Positions 43,696-49,494 of a DNA stretch of 64,000 nt are shown here, one piece after another; position 1 is the first letter of the stretch, and every line of letters starts with the position of its first letter. Origin of the DNA: Gammaproteobacteria bacterium (GTDB taxonomy: Bacteria > Pseudomonadota > Gammaproteobacteria > Eutrophobiales > Eutrophobiaceae); NCBI GenBank assembly GCA_040905045.1, contig JBBDSH010000081.1, positions 18,919-82,918 of the forward strand, written 5' to 3'. Both the position numbers and the translations under genes were made by a program. Below the pieces are notes generated by a model, which saw only the letters and a program-made list of their open reading frames with translations, made no database searches and had not been told where the DNA came from.

Positions 43696-44589
43696 ATGAC
43701 TTACGCCATAGACGTCCATATCCACGCCGATGCCGACAGCCGCGTTATCTGCGGCCGTGCCGAGGAGTTCCGCGATGCCGCGGTCAAATACTTCAACGCC
43801 AAGTTCGAGGAACAGACAATCGACCAGACCGCCGATATGTACCGGGAGTTGGACATGATGGCGGTGCTGTTCGCCCTGGATTCCTCCTCCGGCGCCGGCA
43901 TACCGCCCATCACCAATGACTTCGTCGCCAAGGCCGTCAAGGACAACCCCGATGTCTACATCGGCTTCGCCAGCGTCGACCCCTGGCGCGGCGTCATGGC
44001 CGTGGACGAAGTGAAACGGGCAATGGAAGAACTGGGCCTGAAGGGCTTCAAGTTTCACCCGGCCACCCAGGCCTTCTACCCCAACGACAAGCGCTTCTAT
44101 CCCATCTACGAGGCGATTGCCAAATACGATAACATCCCCATGCTGTTCCACACCGGCACCACCGGCATCGGCGCCGGCATGCCCGGCGGCGGCGGCATCA
44201 AGCTGGATTCCTCGCGGCCGATTCCCTATATGGACGATGTGGCCGCGGACTTCCCCGACACGCCCATGATCCTGGCGCACCCGTCCTGGCCCTGGGAAAA
44301 CGACGCCCTGGCCATGGCCGTTCACAAGACCAACGTCTACATCGACCTGTCCGGCTGGTCACCGAAATATTTCCCGGAATCCGTGATCCGATATGCCAAT
44401 TCGAAGCTGCAGGACAAGATCCTGTTCGGATCGGATTTCCCGTTGATCTCGCCGCAACGCTGGCTGCGTGACTTTGAGAAGGCGCCGTTCAAAGACGAGG
44501 TGCGGCCCAAGATCCTGTTTGAAAACGCCAATAAACTGCTGGGCCTGAACCTGACACGTACCGACGCCCCGGCCGGGATATACGACTGA
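43696..44589 (+). CDS. amidohydrolase_2 family (ACMSD/LigI/reversible-decarboxylase-like TIM barrel) protein
   Basis: N-terminal IDVHIH metal motif. 297 aa. Confidence 0.7.
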   Translation: MTYAIDVHIHADADSRVICGRAEEFRDAAVKYFNAKFEEQTIDQTADMYRELDMMAVLFALDSSSGAGIPPITNDFVAKAVKDNPDVYIGFASVDPWRGVMAVDEVKRAMEELGLKGFKFHPATQAFYPNDKRFYPIYEAIAKYDNIPMLFHTGTTGIGAGMPGGGGIKLDSSRPIPYMDDVAADFPDTPMILAHPSWPWENDALAMAVHKTNVYIDLSGWSPKYFPESVIRYANSKLQDKILFGSDFPLISPQRWLRDFEKAPFKDEVRPKILFENANKLLGLNLTRTDAPAGIYD

Positions 44590-44760
44590 CGCCCGGCCTG
44601 AAAATAACCGGATAATGCATTACCATATACCGACGTAAACACTGTAACTTTCGCTGTGGCGGATTTCTTCACCGCCGTCAGACAGAATCCGTCGCGCCCG
44701 CGACGAGTTCCATTCGATAACAGGCTGCTATTGCCGTGGGTGTAATACGGGGGAACATAA

Positions 44761-46621: not shown

Positions 46622-48013
46622 ATGCATATTCGTAAAATCCTTGTAGCCAACCGCGGCGAGATCGCCGCCCGCGTCATACAGACCTGCAACCGTGTGGGCA
46701 TCGAGACGGTCCTGGCCGCGTCGGAGGCGGATCTGAATTCCGTGCCCGCGCGGCTTGCCGATGAAACCGTCTGCATCGGCCCGGCGCAATCCTCGCAGAG
46801 TTATCTCAACGTCGACGCCGTGGTCGCCGCGGCTGTAGCGGCCAAGGTAGACGCACTGCATCCCGGCTACGGGTTTTTGTCCGAAAACGTCAGACTGGCA
46901 CGCGCACTGCGTGAAGCCGGCATCATCTTCATCGGTCCGACGGAGGATCAACTGGAAGCCGTGGGCGACAAACTGCGCGCCCGCCAGCATGCCGTGGACG
47001 CCGGCCTGCCGGTGGTACCGGGCGGTTCCGTGGAAGACCCGGAAACGGCCGTGGAACTGGCCAAAGAGATCGATTATCCGATCCTGATCAAGGCCGTGGG
47101 CGGCGGCGGCGGACGCGGCATGAAGCAGGTGCACGATGCCGCCGGCATGAAAGAGGCCGTGGAGATGGCCATGGCCGAGGCGGACGCGGCCTTCGGCGAC
47201 GGGCGCGTCTATCTGGAACGTTATGTGGCCTCGGGCCGTCATGTGGAAGTGCAGGTGCTGGGAGACGGGAAGAACATGCTCCATTTCGGTGACCGGGACT
47301 GTTCCATACAACGCCGCTACCAGAAGCTGGTGGAGGAAGCCCCCGCCCCGGACCTGAGTGACGAACTGCGCGGAAAAATGCACGCCGCCGCCGTGGCCCT
47401 GGGCGAACATCTGGGCTACCGCGGCGCCGGCACGGTGGAATTCCTGGTGGACTGCAAGCGCAATGAATTCTACTTCCTGGAAATGAACGCCCGCATCCAG
47501 GTGGAACACCCGATCACGGAAATGATTACCGGTGTGGACCTGGTGGAGGAACAGATCGCCGTGGCCGAGTCGCGGCCGCTGCGATGGACACAGGAAGAGA
47601 TCCGCTTCAACGGCCACGCCATCGAGTGCCGTATCAACGCCGAGGACGTGTCACAGGACTTTCGCCCCACACCGGGGACCGTGACCCGGGCCGCGTTCCC
47701 GGCCGGAGAGCACATCCGCGTGGATACGCATATCGAAAAGGGCGTCACCGTGACGCCGTTTTACGACTCACTGCTGGCCAAGATCATCGTCCACGGAACC
47801 GATCGCGAAGCGGCGCTATCCAATATGCTGAAGGCCCTGAAGAACTGTCATCTTGAAGGCGTGGCAACCAATGTCGCCATGCACGCGGCGCTCATGGGCG
47901 ATGACCGCTTCAGGCGGGGCGGTGTCGATACCGCTTTCTTTAATCAATTTCTTTCCGAATCGGGTCTGGGCAAATCCGACACCGGCCTGAAACAGGCGGG
48001 AGGTAAACAATGA
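46622..48013 (+). CDS. biotin carboxylase (ATP-grasp) subunit
   Basis: MHIRKILVANRGEIAARVIQTC N-terminus. ATP-grasp GGGGRGM. Biotin-carboxylase C-domain. 463 aa. The stop overlaps the next gene (ATGA). Confidence 0.9.
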   Translation: MHIRKILVANRGEIAARVIQTCNRVGIETVLAASEADLNSVPARLADETVCIGPAQSSQSYLNVDAVVAAAVAAKVDALHPGYGFLSENVRLARALREAGIIFIGPTEDQLEAVGDKLRARQHAVDAGLPVVPGGSVEDPETAVELAKEIDYPILIKAVGGGGGRGMKQVHDAAGMKEAVEMAMAEADAAFGDGRVYLERYVASGRHVEVQVLGDGKNMLHFGDRDCSIQRRYQKLVEEAPAPDLSDELRGKMHAAAVALGEHLGYRGAGTVEFLVDCKRNEFYFLEMNARIQVEHPITEMITGVDLVEEQIAVAESRPLRWTQEEIRFNGHAIECRINAEDVSQDFRPTPGTVTRAAFPAGEHIRVDTHIEKGVTVTPFYDSLLAKIIVHGTDREAALSNMLKALKNCHLEGVATNVAMHAALMGDDRFRRGGVDTAFFNQFLSESGLGKSDTGLKQAGGKQ

Positions 48014-49494
48014 CGGACATACAACTGGTCGATGTTTCCATACGCGACGGCAACCAGAGCCTGTGGAGCGCCACCGGCCTGAGCACGCGGCAGATCCTGC
48101 AGATCGCACCGGTGGTCAACCGTGTCGGGTTCAAGTGCCTGGACTTCACCTCCAGTACCCACATGGCCGTGGCCGTGCGCTATTTCAGGGAAGATCCCTG
48201 GGAGCGTATCCGCCTCATGCACGCCGCCTGTCCCGATACGCCCCTGCAGTTGATTACTACCGGCTTCCGCTTCATCTCCTGGGAAACGGCGGACTATGAT
48301 TTCATGCGTCTGGTTTACCGGACACTGATGAAGAACGGCATCGGCCGTTTCATCCTGCTGGATCCCATGCACGACATGGACGCCCTGCTGGCCGGCGCGC
48401 GCATTATCAAGGAGGAAGGCGACGCCGACGTCATGGGCGCCCTGACCTACACCGTCAGCGATGTGCACGACGATCAATTCTACGCCGACTGCACCGCGCA
48501 CATGGCCGCCTCACCGGATGTGGATCTGGTCTACATCAAGGATCCGTCCGGCCTGTTGACACCGGAACGAGCACGTACCCTGGTGCCGGCGGTGCAGAAG
48601 GCCGCCGGCGACATGCCCGTTGAGATCCATTCCCACTGCACCATCGGCCTGTCCCAGTTCAATTATCTGGTCGCCGCCGACGCGGGCATCGACGTCATGC
48701 ATACGGCCGTCGGGCCGCTGGCCAACGGCAGCTCCCTGCCGCCGGCGCGGCAGACCATCGACAATCTGCGCGCCCACGGCCATCAGGTTCACGTCAATGA
48801 AAAAGCGCTGCAACAGATGACGGATTATTTCACGGCCCTGGCCCGGGCCGAGGGCCTGCCCGCCGGCATGCCCCAGGCCTACGACGCCCGCTTCATGCGC
48901 CACCAGGTGGCCGGCGGGGTTATGACCACGACGCGGCGGCAACTGGCCGAGGTGAACCTGGAACACCGCTTCGACGAAGTCATGGAAGAGGTGGAACGGG
49001 TACGCACGGAGCTGGGCTCGCCCATCATGGTGACGCCGTTCCCGCAGATCGTCTGCACCCAGGCCACCTTCAACGTTATCGGTCCGGAGCGCTACGCCAA
49101 TGTCCCGGATCAGGTAGTCCGATACGTGCTCGGCCGTTTCGGCCGGCCCACCGCGCCGGTGGACGAAAATATCCTTGATAAAATAATGTCTCTGCCGCGT
49201 ACAAAAGAAATCCAGCAAGAACCGACCAGCATGGCACTGGAAGATATCCGCAAGCAATTCTCGAAGAATCTTTCCGACGAGGAATTCCTGTTGCGTGCCG
49301 TCATGCCCCAGGAACAGGTGGACGCCATGCTCGCCAACAGTCCTTCCCGAACCCGTTACAATTCACGCCTCAGTCCCGTTGTGAAACTGATAAAGGAAGT
49401 CAGTCAGCGGCCGGGCGCCAGGGAACTCAATCTGGAAAAAGAGGGCTTCAAACTGCGCCTGCGCGGGAACGGAAAAGTAAGGAGTGAGGCGTAA
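48010..49494 (+). CDS. carboxyltransferase subunit, pyruvate carboxylase B / oxaloacetate decarboxylase alpha-like (HMGL-like TIM barrel), without a biotinyl domain
   Basis: VDVSIRDGNQSLWSA...KCLDF N-terminus typical of PycB/OadA carboxyltransferase. 494 aa with no C-terminal biotinyl domain. The last 6 codons and the stop are encoded by the repeat arm. Confidence 0.8.
   Translation: MTDIQLVDVSIRDGNQSLWSATGLSTRQILQIAPVVNRVGFKCLDFTSSTHMAVAVRYFREDPWERIRLMHAACPDTPLQLITTGFRFISWETADYDFMRLVYRTLMKNGIGRFILLDPMHDMDALLAGARIIKEEGDADVMGALTYTVSDVHDDQFYADCTAHMAASPDVDLVYIKDPSGLLTPERARTLVPAVQKAAGDMPVEIHSHCTIGLSQFNYLVAADAGIDVMHTAVGPLANGSSLPPARQTIDNLRAHGHQVHVNEKALQQMTDYFTALARAEGLPAGMPQAYDARFMRHQVAGGVMTTTRRQLAEVNLEHRFDEVMEEVERVRTELGSPIMVTPFPQIVCTQATFNVIGPERYANVPDQVVRYVLGRFGRPTAPVDENILDKIMSLPRTKEIQQEPTSMALEDIRKQFSKNLSDEEFLLRAVMPQEQVDAMLANSPSRTRYNSRLSPVVKLIKEVSQRPGARELNLEKEGFKLRLRGNGKVRSEA

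What the first reader, a model, noticed from the sequence alone, without database searches (positions are those of the whole stretch)
43696..49494. Split three-subunit biotin-dependent carboxylase next to amidohydrolase_2 and UPF0261 genes: candidate uncharacterised carboxylation module
The gene order is MDR quinone reductase, amidohydrolase_2 (IDVHIH), UPF0261/Tm-1-like, BCCP (EVMKLMN), biotin carboxylase, then a PycB/OadA-like carboxyltransferase that lacks its own biotinyl domain. The BC/CT genes are translationally coupled. Known PycB-type systems (two-subunit pyruvate carboxylase, 2-oxoglutarate carboxylase CfiAB, oxaloacetate decarboxylase) carry the biotinyl domain on the CT polypeptide, so here it is encoded separately. 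UPF0261 proteins have no assigned function. Amidohydrolase_2 members include reversible (de)carboxylases. The cluster may encode a carboxylase for a non-pyruvate 2-oxo or enol substrate.
Basis: inference. Interest (0 to 1): 0.6.

Follow-up and report, generated by a model that had tools for sequence, protein, structure and literature searches.

The report
Known phenolic-ketone kinase–carboxylase gene cluster
These genes are a new copy, in an uncultured gammaproteobacterium, of a bacterial pathway described in 2022-2025 that breaks down lignin-type phenolic ketones such as acetovanillone by phosphorylating and then carboxylating them, so the cluster is real but is not an unknown system.

Summary
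The module is not uncharacterised.

- **Kinase.** The UPF0261 protein is 57.5% identical to MarK, the crystallised acetovanillone kinase of Novosphingobium aromaticivorans. All seven substrate-contact residues and the D14-T15-K16 ATP motif are identical.
- **Carboxylase.** The CT sits in a 100%-bootstrap clade with 68 CTs. Their neighbourhoods are the acetovanillone/4-hydroxyacetophenone clusters acvABCDEF, hpeHICBADEF and marK-acvCDEF. It is only 26-33% identical to OadA, PycB and the 5S subunit, and has lost their LLRGQN and WGGATFD pocket motifs.
- **Amidohydrolase_2.** It is about 50% identical to proteins in the hpeF position and in hydroxycinnamate (cou-type) clusters. That family is CouO/HpeF, 4-hydroxyphenyl-β-ketoacyl-CoA hydrolase.

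Best reading: MarK phosphorylates a 4-hydroxyphenyl methyl ketone, BCCP/BC/CT carboxylates its acetyl group, and the HpeF-like hydrolase acts later on the CoA thioester.

What differs here:
- The HAD phosphatase AcvF/HpeD, present in 51 of 55 comparable loci, is missing. A close relative has it between the CT gene and msrA, where this window carries an MDR dehydrogenase and hemL.
- No CoA ligase is in the window.
- A genome-specific heptamer-repeat hairpin sits inside the operon.

Verdict: new member of a known kind, low interest.

The parts
42667..43659 (+). MDR-family (PIG3/quinone-reductase-like) oxidoreductase. It lies 36 bp upstream of the amidohydrolase gene and is probably co-transcribed, but it is not part of the conserved module.
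   Evidence: Pfam ADH_N/ADH_zinc_N; NCBIfam TIGR02824 scores 215 bits, below the 297 cut-off. A homolog of at least 45% identity is present in only 1 of 55 related loci, the window itself. The close relative L095 has a GerE regulator at this position instead.
43696..44589 (+). CouO/HpeF-like amidohydrolase_2. Predicted 4-hydroxyphenyl-β-ketoacyl-CoA hydrolase, the last side-chain step, giving the hydroxybenzoate plus acetyl-CoA.
   Evidence: PF04909, E 1e-45. It is 50.5% identical to the protein in the hpeF position of a Rhodococcus hpeHICBADEF-like cluster (L086). It is 50-52% identical to amidohydrolases in cou-type hydroxycinnamate clusters, one of them annotated 4-hydroxyphenyl-beta-ketoacyl-CoA hydrolase. 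It is 51% identical to the amidohydrolase at the end of the P. putida YC-AE1 marK-acv operon. The match to LigW decarboxylases is only 35 bits. H8 and H10 are invariant in the family.
44761..45984 (+). MarK-type UPF0261 kinase. Predicted ATP-dependent phosphorylation of the phenolic OH of 4-hydroxyphenyl ketones such as acetovanillone and 4-hydroxyacetophenone.
   Evidence: phmmer against PDB 9MPY (MarK E16K) gives E 2e-148 with an ungapped alignment over residues 1-396. Identity is 57.5%. D14, T15, K16, G195, T196, H219, F283, I285, H304 and H348 are all identical. Their roles are defined in PMC12624787.
46001..46495 (+). Biotin carboxyl carrier protein (AcvC/HpeC/XccB-type).
   Evidence: Biotin_lipoyl domain at residues 88-160 with the motif EVMKLMN. 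TIGR00531 scores 118 bits against a 115 cut-off. It is conserved immediately upstream of BC in 55 of 55 loci.
46499..46572 (.). Heptamer-repeat inverted repeat, (GTRAGRA)n, forming a strong hairpin in the 126-bp gap between BCCP and BC. It is an inserted genome-specific repeat whose effect on the operon is unknown.
   Evidence: The RNA fold of 46490-46625 has MFE -47 kcal/mol and z-score -5.96. The motif is 240-fold over-represented in the window (12 matches against 0.05 expected). It is absent from the related loci, where BCCP and BC abut.
46622..48013 (+). Biotin carboxylase (AcvD/HpeB/XccC-type).
   Evidence: Biotin_carb_N, CPSase_L_D2 and Biotin_carb_C domains. NF006367 scores 610 bits against a 597 cut-off. 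It is 57-67% identical to BC genes of the related loci.
48010..49494 (+). Carboxyltransferase (AcvE/HpeA/XccA-type) without a biotinyl domain. Predicted to transfer CO2 from carboxybiotin to the methyl group of the 4-phospho-aryl methyl ketone.
   Evidence: PYC_OADA plus HMGL-like domains. All PycB and OadA NCBIfam models score below their cut-offs. It lies in a 100/100 bootstrap clade with 68 CTs from acv/hpe-type contexts, at 54-79% identity, against 26-33% to OadA, PycB and 5S. It carries the family signatures TSSTH, TTGFRFISW and KDPSG. The metal ligands (D13, K177, H207, H209) and the GGxxT Thr are retained. The ATGA overlap with BC is confirmed.
49477..49806 (.). Pair of 30-nt heptamer-repeat arms, 83% complementary and 270 nt apart. 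They enclose the whole convergent intergenic region between CT and the downstream MDR gene, at the point where relatives carry the acvF-like HAD gene.
   Evidence: the repeat finder pairs I1-I4. Comparison with L095 places the breakpoint of synteny here.
49803..50822 (-). Second MDR zinc-type alcohol dehydrogenase, convergent with the operon. It is a recurrent neighbour of related clusters. A role such as aryl-alcohol oxidation to the ketone is only a guess.
   Evidence: ADH_N and ADH_zinc_N domains. Homologs of 49-60% identity lie within 10 kb of the CT in six other loci: L030, L031, L032, L036, L037 and L040.

Best explanation
The block 43696-49494 is a MarK-type variant of the hydroxyphenylethanone (acetovanillone / 4-hydroxyacetophenone) catabolic module.

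**Proposed steps.**
1. The UPF0261 protein (MarK) uses ATP to phosphorylate the phenolic hydroxyl of a 4-hydroxyphenyl methyl (or alkyl) ketone.
2. The three-subunit biotin enzyme acts on the phospho-ketone. BC carboxylates the biotin on BCCP at the cost of one ATP. The PycB-like CT then transfers the carboxyl group to the enolised acetyl methyl group, giving the 4-phospho-aryl-β-ketopropionate.
3. A phosphatase removes the phosphate. In most relatives this is the adjacent HAD enzyme AcvF/HpeD. Here it must be encoded elsewhere or be a non-specific enzyme.
4. After CoA activation by a ligase not present in this window, the CouO/HpeF-like amidohydrolase_2 cleaves the β-ketoacyl-CoA to the hydroxybenzoate (vanillate or 4-hydroxybenzoate) and acetyl-CoA.

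**What is shown here.** Gene content, homology, conserved residues and conserved synteny.

**What is inferred from the characterised homologs.** The chemistry of each step and the substrate class.
For: **Kinase.**
- The window protein is 57.5% identical to crystallised MarK over an ungapped 396 residues.
- All seven acetovanillone-contacting residues and D14/T15/K16 are identical. These residues are defined in PMC12624787.
- In N. aromaticivorans marK is the first gene of the operon marK-acvC-acvD-acvE-acvF. The window has the same order: kinase, BCCP, BC, CT.

**Carboxylase.**
- Among 55 related loci with full flanks (the window included), BCCP is present in 55 and BC in 54. An AcvAB/HpeHI-type dikinase (PEP-utilizers plus PPDK_N) is present in 48, MarK in 5 and a NagD-type HAD in 51.
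- The window CT lies inside this clade with 100/100 bootstrap support, apart from OadA, PycB and 5S.
- A natural CT-HAD fusion protein exists (P0021, in L028).
- HpeCBA has been shown to carboxylate 4-phospho-acetovanillone and 4-phospho-acetophenone but not the free phenols, using one ATP per turnover (PMC9618137).
- Window identities to the Rhodococcus JS3073 hpe-like cluster are 43% (CT), 49% (BC) and 38% (BCCP). The published AcvE/D/C versus ApkA/B/C (Hpe) values are 42%, 51% and 38%.
- The CT keeps the metal site and the catalytic Thr. It replaces the motif LLRGQNLLGY, whose Arg binds the pyruvate carboxylate in pyruvate carboxylase (own knowledge), with TTGFRFISW. That fits a substrate without a 1-carboxylate.

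**Hydrolase.**
- It is about 50% identical to proteins in the hpeF position and in cou-type clusters.
[quoted passage not shown] HpeF is 95% identical to CouO.

**Close relatives.** L095 and L096 (CT 80% identical) carry amidohydrolase_2, UPF0261, BCCP, BC, CT and HAD in one row.
Against: - No AcvF/HpeD-type HAD phosphatase is found anywhere in the 64-kb window (tblastn E<0.01). Mutants lacking acvF cannot grow on acetovanillone in SYK-6 and N. aromaticivorans.
- No AMP-forming CoA ligase or VceAB-type genes were found among the window ORFs scanned, so the hydrolase has no visible supplier of substrate.
- No vanillate or 4-hydroxybenzoate ring-processing genes are in the window.
- I could not align the window proteins directly with the experimentally tested AcvCDE, HpeCBA, XccABC or CouO sequences, because they are not available in the tools. 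For everything except MarK, the link runs through synteny-defined homologs.
- The actual substrate of this organism's enzymes is untested.
Confidence: 0.8

Rival explanations
1. It is a split form of pyruvate carboxylase, 2-oxoglutarate carboxylase or oxaloacetate decarboxylase, acting on a 2-oxo acid.
For: The best solved-structure matches of the CT are OadA (2nx9, E 1e-61) and PycB (5ks8_C, E 6e-60). The top NCBIfam name is pyruvate carboxylase subunit B. The metal ligands and the catalytic Thr are conserved.
Against: - Every PycB and OadA model scores below its cut-off, for example 322 bits against 402.
- Identity to OadA, PycB and 5S is only 26-33%, and they are separated from the window CT with 100/100 bootstrap support.
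- The motifs LLRGQNLLGY, WGGATFD and KDMAG, invariant in OadA, PycB and 5S, are replaced.
- There are no OadB or OadG genes.
- The neighbours are a phenol kinase and a β-ketoacyl-CoA hydrolase.
Confidence: 0.03
2. The machinery is the same (phosphorylate, carboxylate), but the physiological substrate is not a lignin-type acetophenone. It could be another phenolic or enolisable ketone, for example longer alkyl phenyl ketones, bisphenol-A-derived 4-hydroxyacetophenone, or a non-lignin natural product.
For: - MarK E16K phosphorylates several aromatic ketones and aldehydes.
- HpeCBA prefers 4-phospho-acetophenone over phospho-acetovanillone by about tenfold.
- Homologous clusters sit on plasmids of Sphingomonas bisphenolicum AO1 and P. 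putida YC-AE1. Both are known bisphenol-A degraders (own knowledge).
- The host is an uncultured gammaproteobacterium of unknown habitat.
- No vanillate demethylase is nearby.
Against: All residues that contact acetovanillone in MarK, including those binding the phenolic O and the ketone O, are identical. The substrate class, a 4-hydroxyphenyl ketone, is therefore unlikely to differ. This rival concerns only which member of the class is used.
Confidence: 0.3
3. The cluster is a decaying or incomplete remnant. Loss of acvF, and the absence of a CoA ligase, leave it unable to support growth on these ketones.
For: - HAD is absent here but present in 51 of 55 loci and in the closest syntenic relative.
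- acvF is essential in two organisms.
- Repeat elements are inserted within and after the operon.
Against: - All five ORFs are intact and full length, and catalytic residues are conserved.
- Three other related loci also lack a HAD within 5-10 kb downstream of the CT: L002, L012 and L027.
- Host phosphatases complemented AcvF in S. japonicum extracts.
- vceAB and hpeEF are often not colocalised with the carboxylase genes.
Confidence: 0.12
4. In this lineage the amidohydrolase_2 has taken over the phosphatase step, or acts directly on the β-keto acid, rather than being a CoA-thioester hydrolase.
For: The window has the amidohydrolase but neither the HAD nor a CoA ligase. The gene sits first in the conserved block, directly before marK, in the window and in L095/L096.
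Against: L095 and L096 have both the amidohydrolase and the HAD, so the two are not alternatives. The protein is about 50% identical across cou-type, hpe-type and marK-type contexts, which argues for one conserved function. No PF04909 member is known to me as a phosphatase (own knowledge).
Confidence: 0.05

Closest known systems
marK-acvCDEF operon of Novosphingobium aromaticivorans DSM12444 (Saro_1862-1858; Hall et al. 2025, PMC12624787)
   Same: It uses a standalone UPF0261 kinase followed by BCCP, BC and CT in the same order and on the same strand. The kinase is 57.5% identical with identical ATP-motif and acetovanillone-pocket residues. K16 is native in the window protein, as in the active MarK forms.
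   Different: No acvF (HAD phosphatase) follows the CT. A CouO/HpeF-like amidohydrolase precedes the kinase. The host is a gammaproteobacterial MAG rather than a sphingomonad. A repeat hairpin is inserted between BCCP and BC.
hpeHICBADEF of Rhodococcus rhodochrous GD02 (Dexter et al. 2022, PMC9618137)
   Same: It has a three-subunit biotin carboxylase, shown to act on 4-phospho-acetovanillone and 4-phospho-acetophenone, plus an amidohydrolase-superfamily β-ketoacyl-CoA hydrolase (HpeF, 95% identical to CouO). The window has homologs of hpeC, B, A and F. Measured against the syntenic Rhodococcus JS3073 plasmid cluster these are 38%, 49%, 43% and 50.5% identical.
   Different: The kinase there is the non-homologous two-subunit dikinase HpeHI, which forms AMP, whereas MarK forms ADP. 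The window has no HpeD phosphatase or HpeE CoA synthetase.
acvABCDEF of Sphingobium sp. SYK-6 (Higuchi et al. 2022, 10.1101/2022.04.28.489975) and xccABC of Aromatoleum aromaticum EbN1
   Same: Both have separate BCCP, BC and PycB-like CT subunits dedicated to carboxylating the acetyl group of 4-hydroxyacetophenone-type compounds.
   Different: They use the AcvAB dikinase instead of MarK. In SYK-6 the downstream steps use VceA/VceB rather than a CouO/HpeF-type hydrolase.
CouO of Rhodococcus jostii RHA1 (4-hydroxyphenyl-β-ketoacyl-CoA hydrolase; PMC4737184)
   Same: Amidohydrolase superfamily (the window protein is PF04909). Window homologs at 50-52% identity sit in cou-like clusters next to a CoA ligase, a hydratase and a dehydrogenase.
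   Different: Here the gene is attached to a ketone-carboxylation module rather than to a hydroxycinnamate β-oxidation module. A direct alignment with CouO itself was not possible.
Two-subunit pyruvate carboxylase PycB, oxaloacetate decarboxylase OadA, transcarboxylase 5S
   Same: The same CT fold (HMGL-like TIM barrel plus PYC_OADA domain), with the same Asp/Lys/His-x-His metal site and the conserved Thr of the GGxxT loop.
   Different: Identity is 26-33% and there is no biotinyl domain. The pocket motifs LLRGQN, WGGATFD and KDMAG are replaced. A roughly 50-residue C-terminal extension is shared only with the Acv/Hpe clade and other split CTs.

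Membership tests
Acv/Hpe-type hydroxyphenylethanone carboxylation module | Three separate genes, BCCP, BC and a PycB-like CT lacking a biotinyl domain, adjacent and co-oriented | tested here: met
   Pfam and NCBIfam domain calls. ATGA overlap of BC and CT. The same order occurs in 54-55 of 55 related loci.
Acv/Hpe-type hydroxyphenylethanone carboxylation module | The CT belongs to the AcvE/HpeA/XccA clade rather than to PycB/OadA | tested here: met
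   It lies in a 100/100 bootstrap clade with 68 CTs whose neighbourhoods carry AcvAB/HpeHI or MarK kinases and a NagD-type HAD. The clade includes the Rhodococcus JS3073 cluster in exact hpeHICBADEF order. Caveat: the experimentally tested AcvE, HpeA and XccA sequences themselves were not available for alignment.
Acv/Hpe-type hydroxyphenylethanone carboxylation module | An adjacent phenol kinase (AcvAB/HpeHI dikinase or MarK) | tested here: met
   A MarK homolog lies 16 bp upstream of BCCP.
Acv/Hpe-type hydroxyphenylethanone carboxylation module | An adjacent NagD-type HAD phosphatase (AcvF/HpeD) | tested here: not met
   No tblastn hit (E<0.01) to two AcvF-like queries anywhere in the 64-kb window. 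Only an unrelated HAD_2 gene is present, at 54547-55278. The relatives L095 and L096 have the HAD directly after the CT.
Acv/Hpe-type hydroxyphenylethanone carboxylation module | ATP- and bicarbonate-dependent carboxylation of 4-phospho-aryl methyl ketones | not testable with these tools
   This requires an enzyme assay. It has been shown only for HpeCBA (PMC9618137) and, in crude extracts, for AcvCDE.
MarK (UPF0261 aromatic kinase) | UPF0261 N- and C-terminal domains in one polypeptide of about 406 aa, without a fused or adjacent PEP-hydrolase-like TIM-barrel partner | tested here: met
   PF06792 plus PF23189 in a 407-aa protein. The neighbouring genes are the amidohydrolase and BCCP.
MarK (UPF0261 aromatic kinase) | ATP-site D14-T15-K16 and the acetovanillone pocket residues G195, T196, H219, F283, I285, H304 and H348 | tested here: met
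   All ten residues are identical in an ungapped alignment with PDB 9MPY.
MarK (UPF0261 aromatic kinase) | ADP-forming phosphorylation of phenolic ketones | not testable with these tools
   Biochemical assay needed.
CouO/HpeF 4-hydroxyphenyl-β-ketoacyl-CoA hydrolase | Amidohydrolase-superfamily protein of about 290 aa with an N-terminal HxH metal motif | tested here: met
   PF04909 full-length match. H8 and H10, plus H121, H152 and H195, are invariant among 14 homologs.
CouO/HpeF 4-hydroxyphenyl-β-ketoacyl-CoA hydrolase | Orthology to CouO/HpeF | tested here: inconclusive
   It is 50-52% identical to proteins in the hpeF position (L086) and in cou-like clusters (L084, and L085, which is annotated with the CouO name). 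CouO (WP_011597356.1) itself could not be aligned.
CouO/HpeF 4-hydroxyphenyl-β-ketoacyl-CoA hydrolase | A partner CoA ligase supplying the thioester (HpeE or CouL) | tested here: not met
   No AMP-binding ligase among the window ORFs scanned. One is present near the CT in 26 of 55 related loci.
Two-subunit pyruvate carboxylase (PycB) / oxaloacetate decarboxylase (OadA) | Score above the curated family cut-off | tested here: not met
   NF006761 scores 322 bits against 402. TIGR01108 scores 290 against 757. NF010644 scores 281 against 734.
Two-subunit pyruvate carboxylase (PycB) / oxaloacetate decarboxylase (OadA) | A C-terminal biotinyl domain on the CT polypeptide, or OadB/OadG partners | tested here: not met
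   No Biotin_lipoyl domain in the 494-aa CT. No membrane-subunit genes nearby.
Two-subunit pyruvate carboxylase (PycB) / oxaloacetate decarboxylase (OadA) | The 2-oxo-acid pocket motifs LLRGQNLLGY and WGGATFD | tested here: not met
   The window has LITTGFRFISW and FTSSTHMAV. The motifs are invariant in the five OadA, PycB and 5S references.

The most novel reading that the evidence does not exclude
This gammaproteobacterial lineage may run a reduced, rewired version of the pathway. In it the dedicated AcvF phosphatase has been dispensed with. Its place between the CT gene and msrA is taken by an MDR dehydrogenase and hemL, with a repeat element at the junction. The CouO/HpeF-like amidohydrolase, the first gene of the conserved block, may then have a broader role, either dephosphorylating or directly cleaving the phospho-β-keto acid. 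The heptamer-repeat hairpins inside and after the operon would act as a lineage-specific post-transcriptional control.
Probability: 0.07. Interest if true: 0.4.

Novelty: new member of a known kind. Interest (0 to 1): 0.15.

Why it matters
The value is mainly in annotation. Public names for these proteins are wrong or empty: "biotin carboxyl carrier protein" or "oxaloacetate decarboxylase alpha subunit" for the CT, and "hypothetical protein" for the kinase family.

The data extend the MarK-type route for phenolic-ketone catabolism to uncultured Gammaproteobacteria. They show that the CT clade is large: more than 6,500 database relatives were recovered, and the top 120 are at least 62% identical to the window CT. 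They also give simple sequence signatures that separate these ketone carboxyltransferases from pyruvate and oxaloacetate enzymes: TSSTH, TTG[FL]RF and KDP[SAG]G.

The finding opens no new question about mechanism. The missing phosphatase is the only feature that is not routine.

Tried and rejected
- **LigW-type decarboxylase for the amidohydrolase.** Rejected. The match to LigW and related decarboxylases is only 29-35 bits, against about 50% identity to CouO-context proteins.
- **Housekeeping accBC that merely neighbours a CT.** Rejected. The CT is translationally coupled to BC, and BCCP-BC-CT is syntenic in 54-55 of 55 loci.
- **An AcvF-like HAD elsewhere in the window.** Searched with two queries at a permissive E-value and found nothing. 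The HAD_2 gene at 54547-55278 belongs to a different subfamily and lies 5 kb away on the other strand, so it was not pursued.
- **Supplementary datasets of the MarK paper.** I tried to cross-check species lists, but no supplements are held.
- **The Otani 2014 CouO paper and the CouO, AcvE and HpeA sequences.** Not in the searchable library and not retrievable with these tools.
- **Known RNA elements in 42-51 kb.** An Rfam scan found none.
- **Promoter and terminator scans.** The counts were no better than in shuffled sequence, so they were not used.
- **Protein searches and structure prediction.** The crystal-structure match and the synteny already decide the question.

Full report
**1. Observation.**

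The + strand between 42667 and 49494 carries six intact ORFs.
- MDR oxidoreductase, 42667-43659.
- Amidohydrolase_2, 43696-44589: PF04909, E 1e-45, motif IDVHIH.
- BCCP, 46001-46495: motif EVMKLMN.
- Biotin carboxylase (BC), 46622-48013.
- Carboxyltransferase (CT), 48010-49494: 494 aa, PYC_OADA domain, no biotinyl domain.

BC and CT overlap by ATGA, with a GGAGG 7 nt upstream of the CT start codon.

**2. The UPF0261 gene is a MarK kinase.**

A literature search for UPF0261 plus biotin returned one paper, Hall et al. 2025 (PMC12624787). It shows that Saro_1862 of Novosphingobium aromaticivorans, a UPF0261 protein named MarK, phosphorylates acetovanillone and related aromatic ketones with ATP. 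It is the first gene of the operon marK-acvC-acvD-acvE-acvF, that is kinase, BCCP, BC, CT and HAD phosphatase.

The window protein matches the MarK crystal structure 9MPY at E 2e-148, without a gap over 396 residues. Identity is 57.5%. All ten functionally assigned residues are identical (roles).
- D14, T15 and K16 at the ATP site.
- G195, H219 and H348, which hydrogen-bond the phenolic and ketone oxygens.
- H304, which stacks on the ring.
- T196, F283 and I285, which line the pocket.

The window protein has the active K16, not the E16 of the weakly active wild-type protein of strain DSM12444.

**3. The carboxylase belongs to the AcvCDE/HpeCBA/XccABC family.**

*Curated models and solved structures.* The CT scores below the cut-off of every PycB and OadA model. 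Its best solved-structure matches are OadA and PycB, at E about 1e-60.

*Database relatives.* A database search found more than 6,500 relatives. The top 120 are 62-100% identical and carry generic or wrong names.

*Neighbourhoods.* Eighty genome loci were fetched and two plasmid loci were added. I scored their neighbourhoods with tblastn and checked representative proteins with Pfam. Among the 55 loci (the window included) with at least 7 kb upstream and 4 kb downstream, the counts were:

| Neighbouring gene | Loci (of 55) |
|---|---|
| BCCP | 55 |
| BC | 54 |
| Two-subunit PEP-utilizers + PPDK_N dikinase (AcvAB/HpeHI type) | 48 |
| MarK | 5 |
| NagD-type HAD (AcvF/HpeD type) | 51 |
| Acetoacetyl-CoA-synthetase-like ligase (HpeE type) | 26 |
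| Homolog of the window amidohydrolase | 9 |

*A reference cluster.* One Rhodococcus plasmid locus (L086) has the exact hpeH-I-C-B-A-D-E-F order of strain GD02 (order from PMC9618137). The window CT, BC and BCCP are 43%, 49% and 38% identical to its proteins. These are nearly the same figures as published for AcvE/D/C of SYK-6 against ApkA/B/C (Hpe) of GD02: 42%, 51% and 38%.

*A natural fusion.* One 788-aa protein fuses the CT to the HAD (P0021, in L028).

*Phylogeny.* A neighbour-joining tree on 488 columns puts the window CT with the 68 other CTs from these contexts. Bootstrap support is 100/100, and the clade is apart from V. cholerae OadA, M. flagellatus PycB, the P. shermanii 5S subunit and two annotated OadA proteins. 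Identity is 54-79% within the clade and 26-33% to the pyruvate/oxaloacetate enzymes.

**4. What the CT sequence says about mechanism.**

The alignment shows that the metal site is kept.
- D13 in IRDGNQS.
- K177 in IKDPSG, which corresponds to the carbamylated Lys of pyruvate carboxylase.
- H207 and H209 in HSHCT.

The Thr of the GGxxT loop is also kept (GGVMTT).

Three motifs that are invariant in OadA, PycB and 5S are replaced throughout the Acv/Hpe clade.

| OadA / PycB / 5S | Acv/Hpe clade |
|---|---|
| WGGATFD | TSST(H) |
| LLRGQNLLGY | (T/S/G)TG(F/L)RFISW |
| KDMAG | KDP(S/A/G)G |

From my own knowledge of pyruvate carboxylase structures, the Arg of LLRxxN binds the carboxylate of pyruvate. 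Its loss fits a substrate in which an aryl group replaces the carboxylate. This step is inference.

The chemistry itself is established for the homolog. HpeCBA carboxylates 4-phospho-acetovanillone and 4-phospho-acetophenone, does not act on the free phenols, and uses one ATP per turnover.

**5. The amidohydrolase_2 is CouO/HpeF-like.**

- Its matches to LigW and other decarboxylases are weak, at 29-35 bits.
- tblastn against plasmids gave 86 records in which one match covers at least 80% of the query. The 40 best listed are 39-55% identical.
- Where I inspected the context, these genes lay in one of four settings:
  - at the end of the P. putida YC-AE1 operon, which runs CoA ligase, Tm-1-like, BCCP, BC, CT, HAD, amidohydrolase;
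  - in the hpeF position of the Rhodococcus JS3073 cluster;
  - next to an AMP-binding ligase, an SDR and a MaoC dehydratase in R. opacus;
  - in a Rhizobium feruloyl-CoA synthase, hydratase, dehydrogenase and MarR cluster, where the gene is annotated 4-hydroxyphenyl-beta-ketoacyl-CoA hydrolase.
- CouO of R. jostii is described as the amidohydrolase-superfamily enzyme that performs the last step of β-oxidative deacetylation (PMC4737184).
- HpeF is 95% identical to CouO.

I could not align CouO itself, so orthology is probable but not proven.

**6. What differs in this window.**

*No AcvF-type HAD.* None exists anywhere in the 64 kb.

*The closest relatives have it.* L095 and L096 come from two different metagenomes, and their CT is 80% identical to the window's. 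Their gene order is GerE regulator (-), amidohydrolase_2, UPF0261, BCCP, BC, CT, HAD, CDP-alcohol phosphatidyltransferase, msrA (-).

*Collinearity.* At the DNA level the window is collinear with L095 from the amidohydrolase to the CT and again at msrA, at 73-79% identity. Between them the window carries a convergent MDR dehydrogenase (49803-50822) and hemL instead of the HAD and the transferase.

*Direction of change.* A HAD directly after the CT is the majority arrangement. The simplest reading is therefore loss by replacement in this lineage. This is inference.

*No ligase or ring-processing genes.* The window ORFs scanned contain no AMP-forming CoA ligase, no VceAB-type genes and no vanillate or 4-hydroxybenzoate ring-processing genes. 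The published work notes that the ligase and hydrolase genes are often not colocalised with the carboxylase. It also notes that host phosphatases can substitute for AcvF in extracts.

*The upstream MDR gene is not conserved.* The MDR gene at 42667-43659 is not conserved with the module.

**7.

The inference that the genes form one carboxylation module for a non-pyruvate, enolisable substrate is right. The claim that it is uncharacterised is overtaken by the 2022 and 2025 papers.

The statement that PycB-type systems always carry the biotinyl domain on the CT is too general. Besides Acv, Hpe and Xcc, I saw split arrangements in three other settings:
- on a Caballeronia plasmid;
- in a different kinase-carboxylase-phosphatase cluster of Rhodococcus oxybenzonivorans;
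- in a clostridial oad operon.

**8. Verdict.**

This is a new member of a known kind: a MarK-type hydroxyphenylethanone phosphorylation-carboxylation cluster with a CouO/HpeF-like hydrolase, in an uncultured gammaproteobacterium, lacking the usual adjacent phosphatase.
- Confidence in this explanation is about 0.8.
- Interest is low, at 0.15.
- The most novel reading not excluded is a rewired pathway in which the phosphatase is dispensable or replaced and the repeat hairpins regulate the operon. I put its probability at about 0.07.

A naming caveat applies to the literature. PMC9618137 Table 1 labels HpeB as the carboxyltransferase and HpeA as the biotin carboxylase. The reported masses (57.4 kDa for HpeA, 49.3 kDa for HpeB), the gene order and the Higuchi preprint all indicate that HpeA/ApkA is the CT and HpeB/ApkB is the BC. 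I use that assignment here.

Noticed in passing
window 24296-24340, 37140-37174, 39296-39329, 46499-46572, 49477-49506, 49777-49806: A genome-specific intergenic heptamer repeat, (GTAAGGA/GTGAGGA/GTAAGAA)n, which resembles Shine-Dalgarno sequences. GTAAGGAGTGAGG with up to one mismatch matches 12 times against 0.05 expected. The copies pair into hairpins. One fills the 126-bp BCCP-BC gap (-47 kcal/mol, z -5.96). Another pair brackets the whole CT/MDR intergenic region. The motif is absent from all 95 related loci apart from L001, which is the same contig as the window, and it has no Rfam match. It may be a REP- or MITE-like element.
   Followed up: partly
window 49494-52334, compared with L095 7538-9278: Relative to a close syntenic relative, the acvF-like HAD gene and a CDP-alcohol phosphatidyltransferase gene, which lie between the CT gene and msrA, are replaced by an MDR dehydrogenase (-) and hemL (+). 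The hemL ORF has an extra N-terminal stretch of about 79 residues that does not match the HemL models, so its real start is probably downstream of 50821.
   Followed up: partly
window 49803-50822 (-); L030, L031, L032, L036, L037, L040: Homologs of the convergent MDR zinc-type alcohol dehydrogenase, at 49-60% identity, recur within 10 kb of the CT in six other proteobacterial acv-type loci, and are always on the opposite strand to the CT. The enzyme might oxidise a 1-aryl-ethanol to the ketone substrate. This is untested.
   Followed up: partly
window about 24000 (composition shift) and 24357-42556: G+C rises from 48-52% to 56-63% at about 24 kb. The GC-rich part upstream of the cluster carries a TPP enzyme, a GMC oxidoreductase, a PQQ dehydrogenase with a cytochrome c domain, a TonB-dependent receptor, an AraC regulator, an MBL-fold hydrolase and an acetoin/pyruvate-dehydrogenase-like E1α-E1β-E2-E3 set. 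This gene set is divergent from the cluster and may be a catabolic island. The GMC oxidoreductase family also includes HpvZ of the SYK-6 β-aryl-ether route.
   Followed up: no
L088 (Rhodococcus oxybenzonivorans pRB98, 554327-567769): A more distant split CT, 37% identical, sits in the row AMP-binding ligase, hypothetical, PPDK-like kinase, BCCP, BC, CT, OB-fold protein, thiolase, tyrosine-type phosphatase. It looks like an analogous phosphorylate-carboxylate-dephosphorylate module for a different substrate. It does not belong to the Acv/Hpe clade and may be uncharacterised.
   Followed up: no
L087 (Caballeronia sp. NK8 pNK84, 228857-242302): Another split CT, 37% identical and annotated pyruvate carboxylase subunit B, is followed by accB and accC. 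It lies near acetoacetate decarboxylase, carbonic anhydrase and a biotin-synthesis gene. It retains the Arg of the LLR motif (LVRSKN), so its substrate is probably different.
   Followed up: no
L028 1-2400 / protein P0021: A natural 788-aa fusion of the AcvE-type CT with the AcvF-type HAD phosphatase, from a Lysobacterales MAG. It supports a tight functional coupling of carboxylation and dephosphorylation.
   Followed up: partly
L082 2588-3915 (Sphingomonas bisphenolicum AO1 pBAR1): Directly upstream of the marK-acvCDEF-like genes lie a thioesterase and a 3-keto-5-aminohexanoate-cleavage (BKACE) family gene. By size and by the acetyl-CoA-dependent chemistry described for VceA and VceB, these may be the alternative downstream module. 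The clusters therefore seem to combine the carboxylation core with either a VceAB-like or an HpeEF-like exit route.
   Followed up: no
L037 (Hyphococcus aureus) 893-17683: The acv-type cluster of this isolate is flanked by an AMP-binding ligase, a SnoaL protein, a LysR regulator, SDR dehydrogenases, a glutathione S-transferase and an MBL-fold hydrolase. This gene set recalls β-aryl-ether (LigD/LigF-type) lignin-dimer catabolism. The window also has GST (57696-58460), SDR (53577-54476) and MBL-fold (35858-36868) genes nearby.
   Followed up: no
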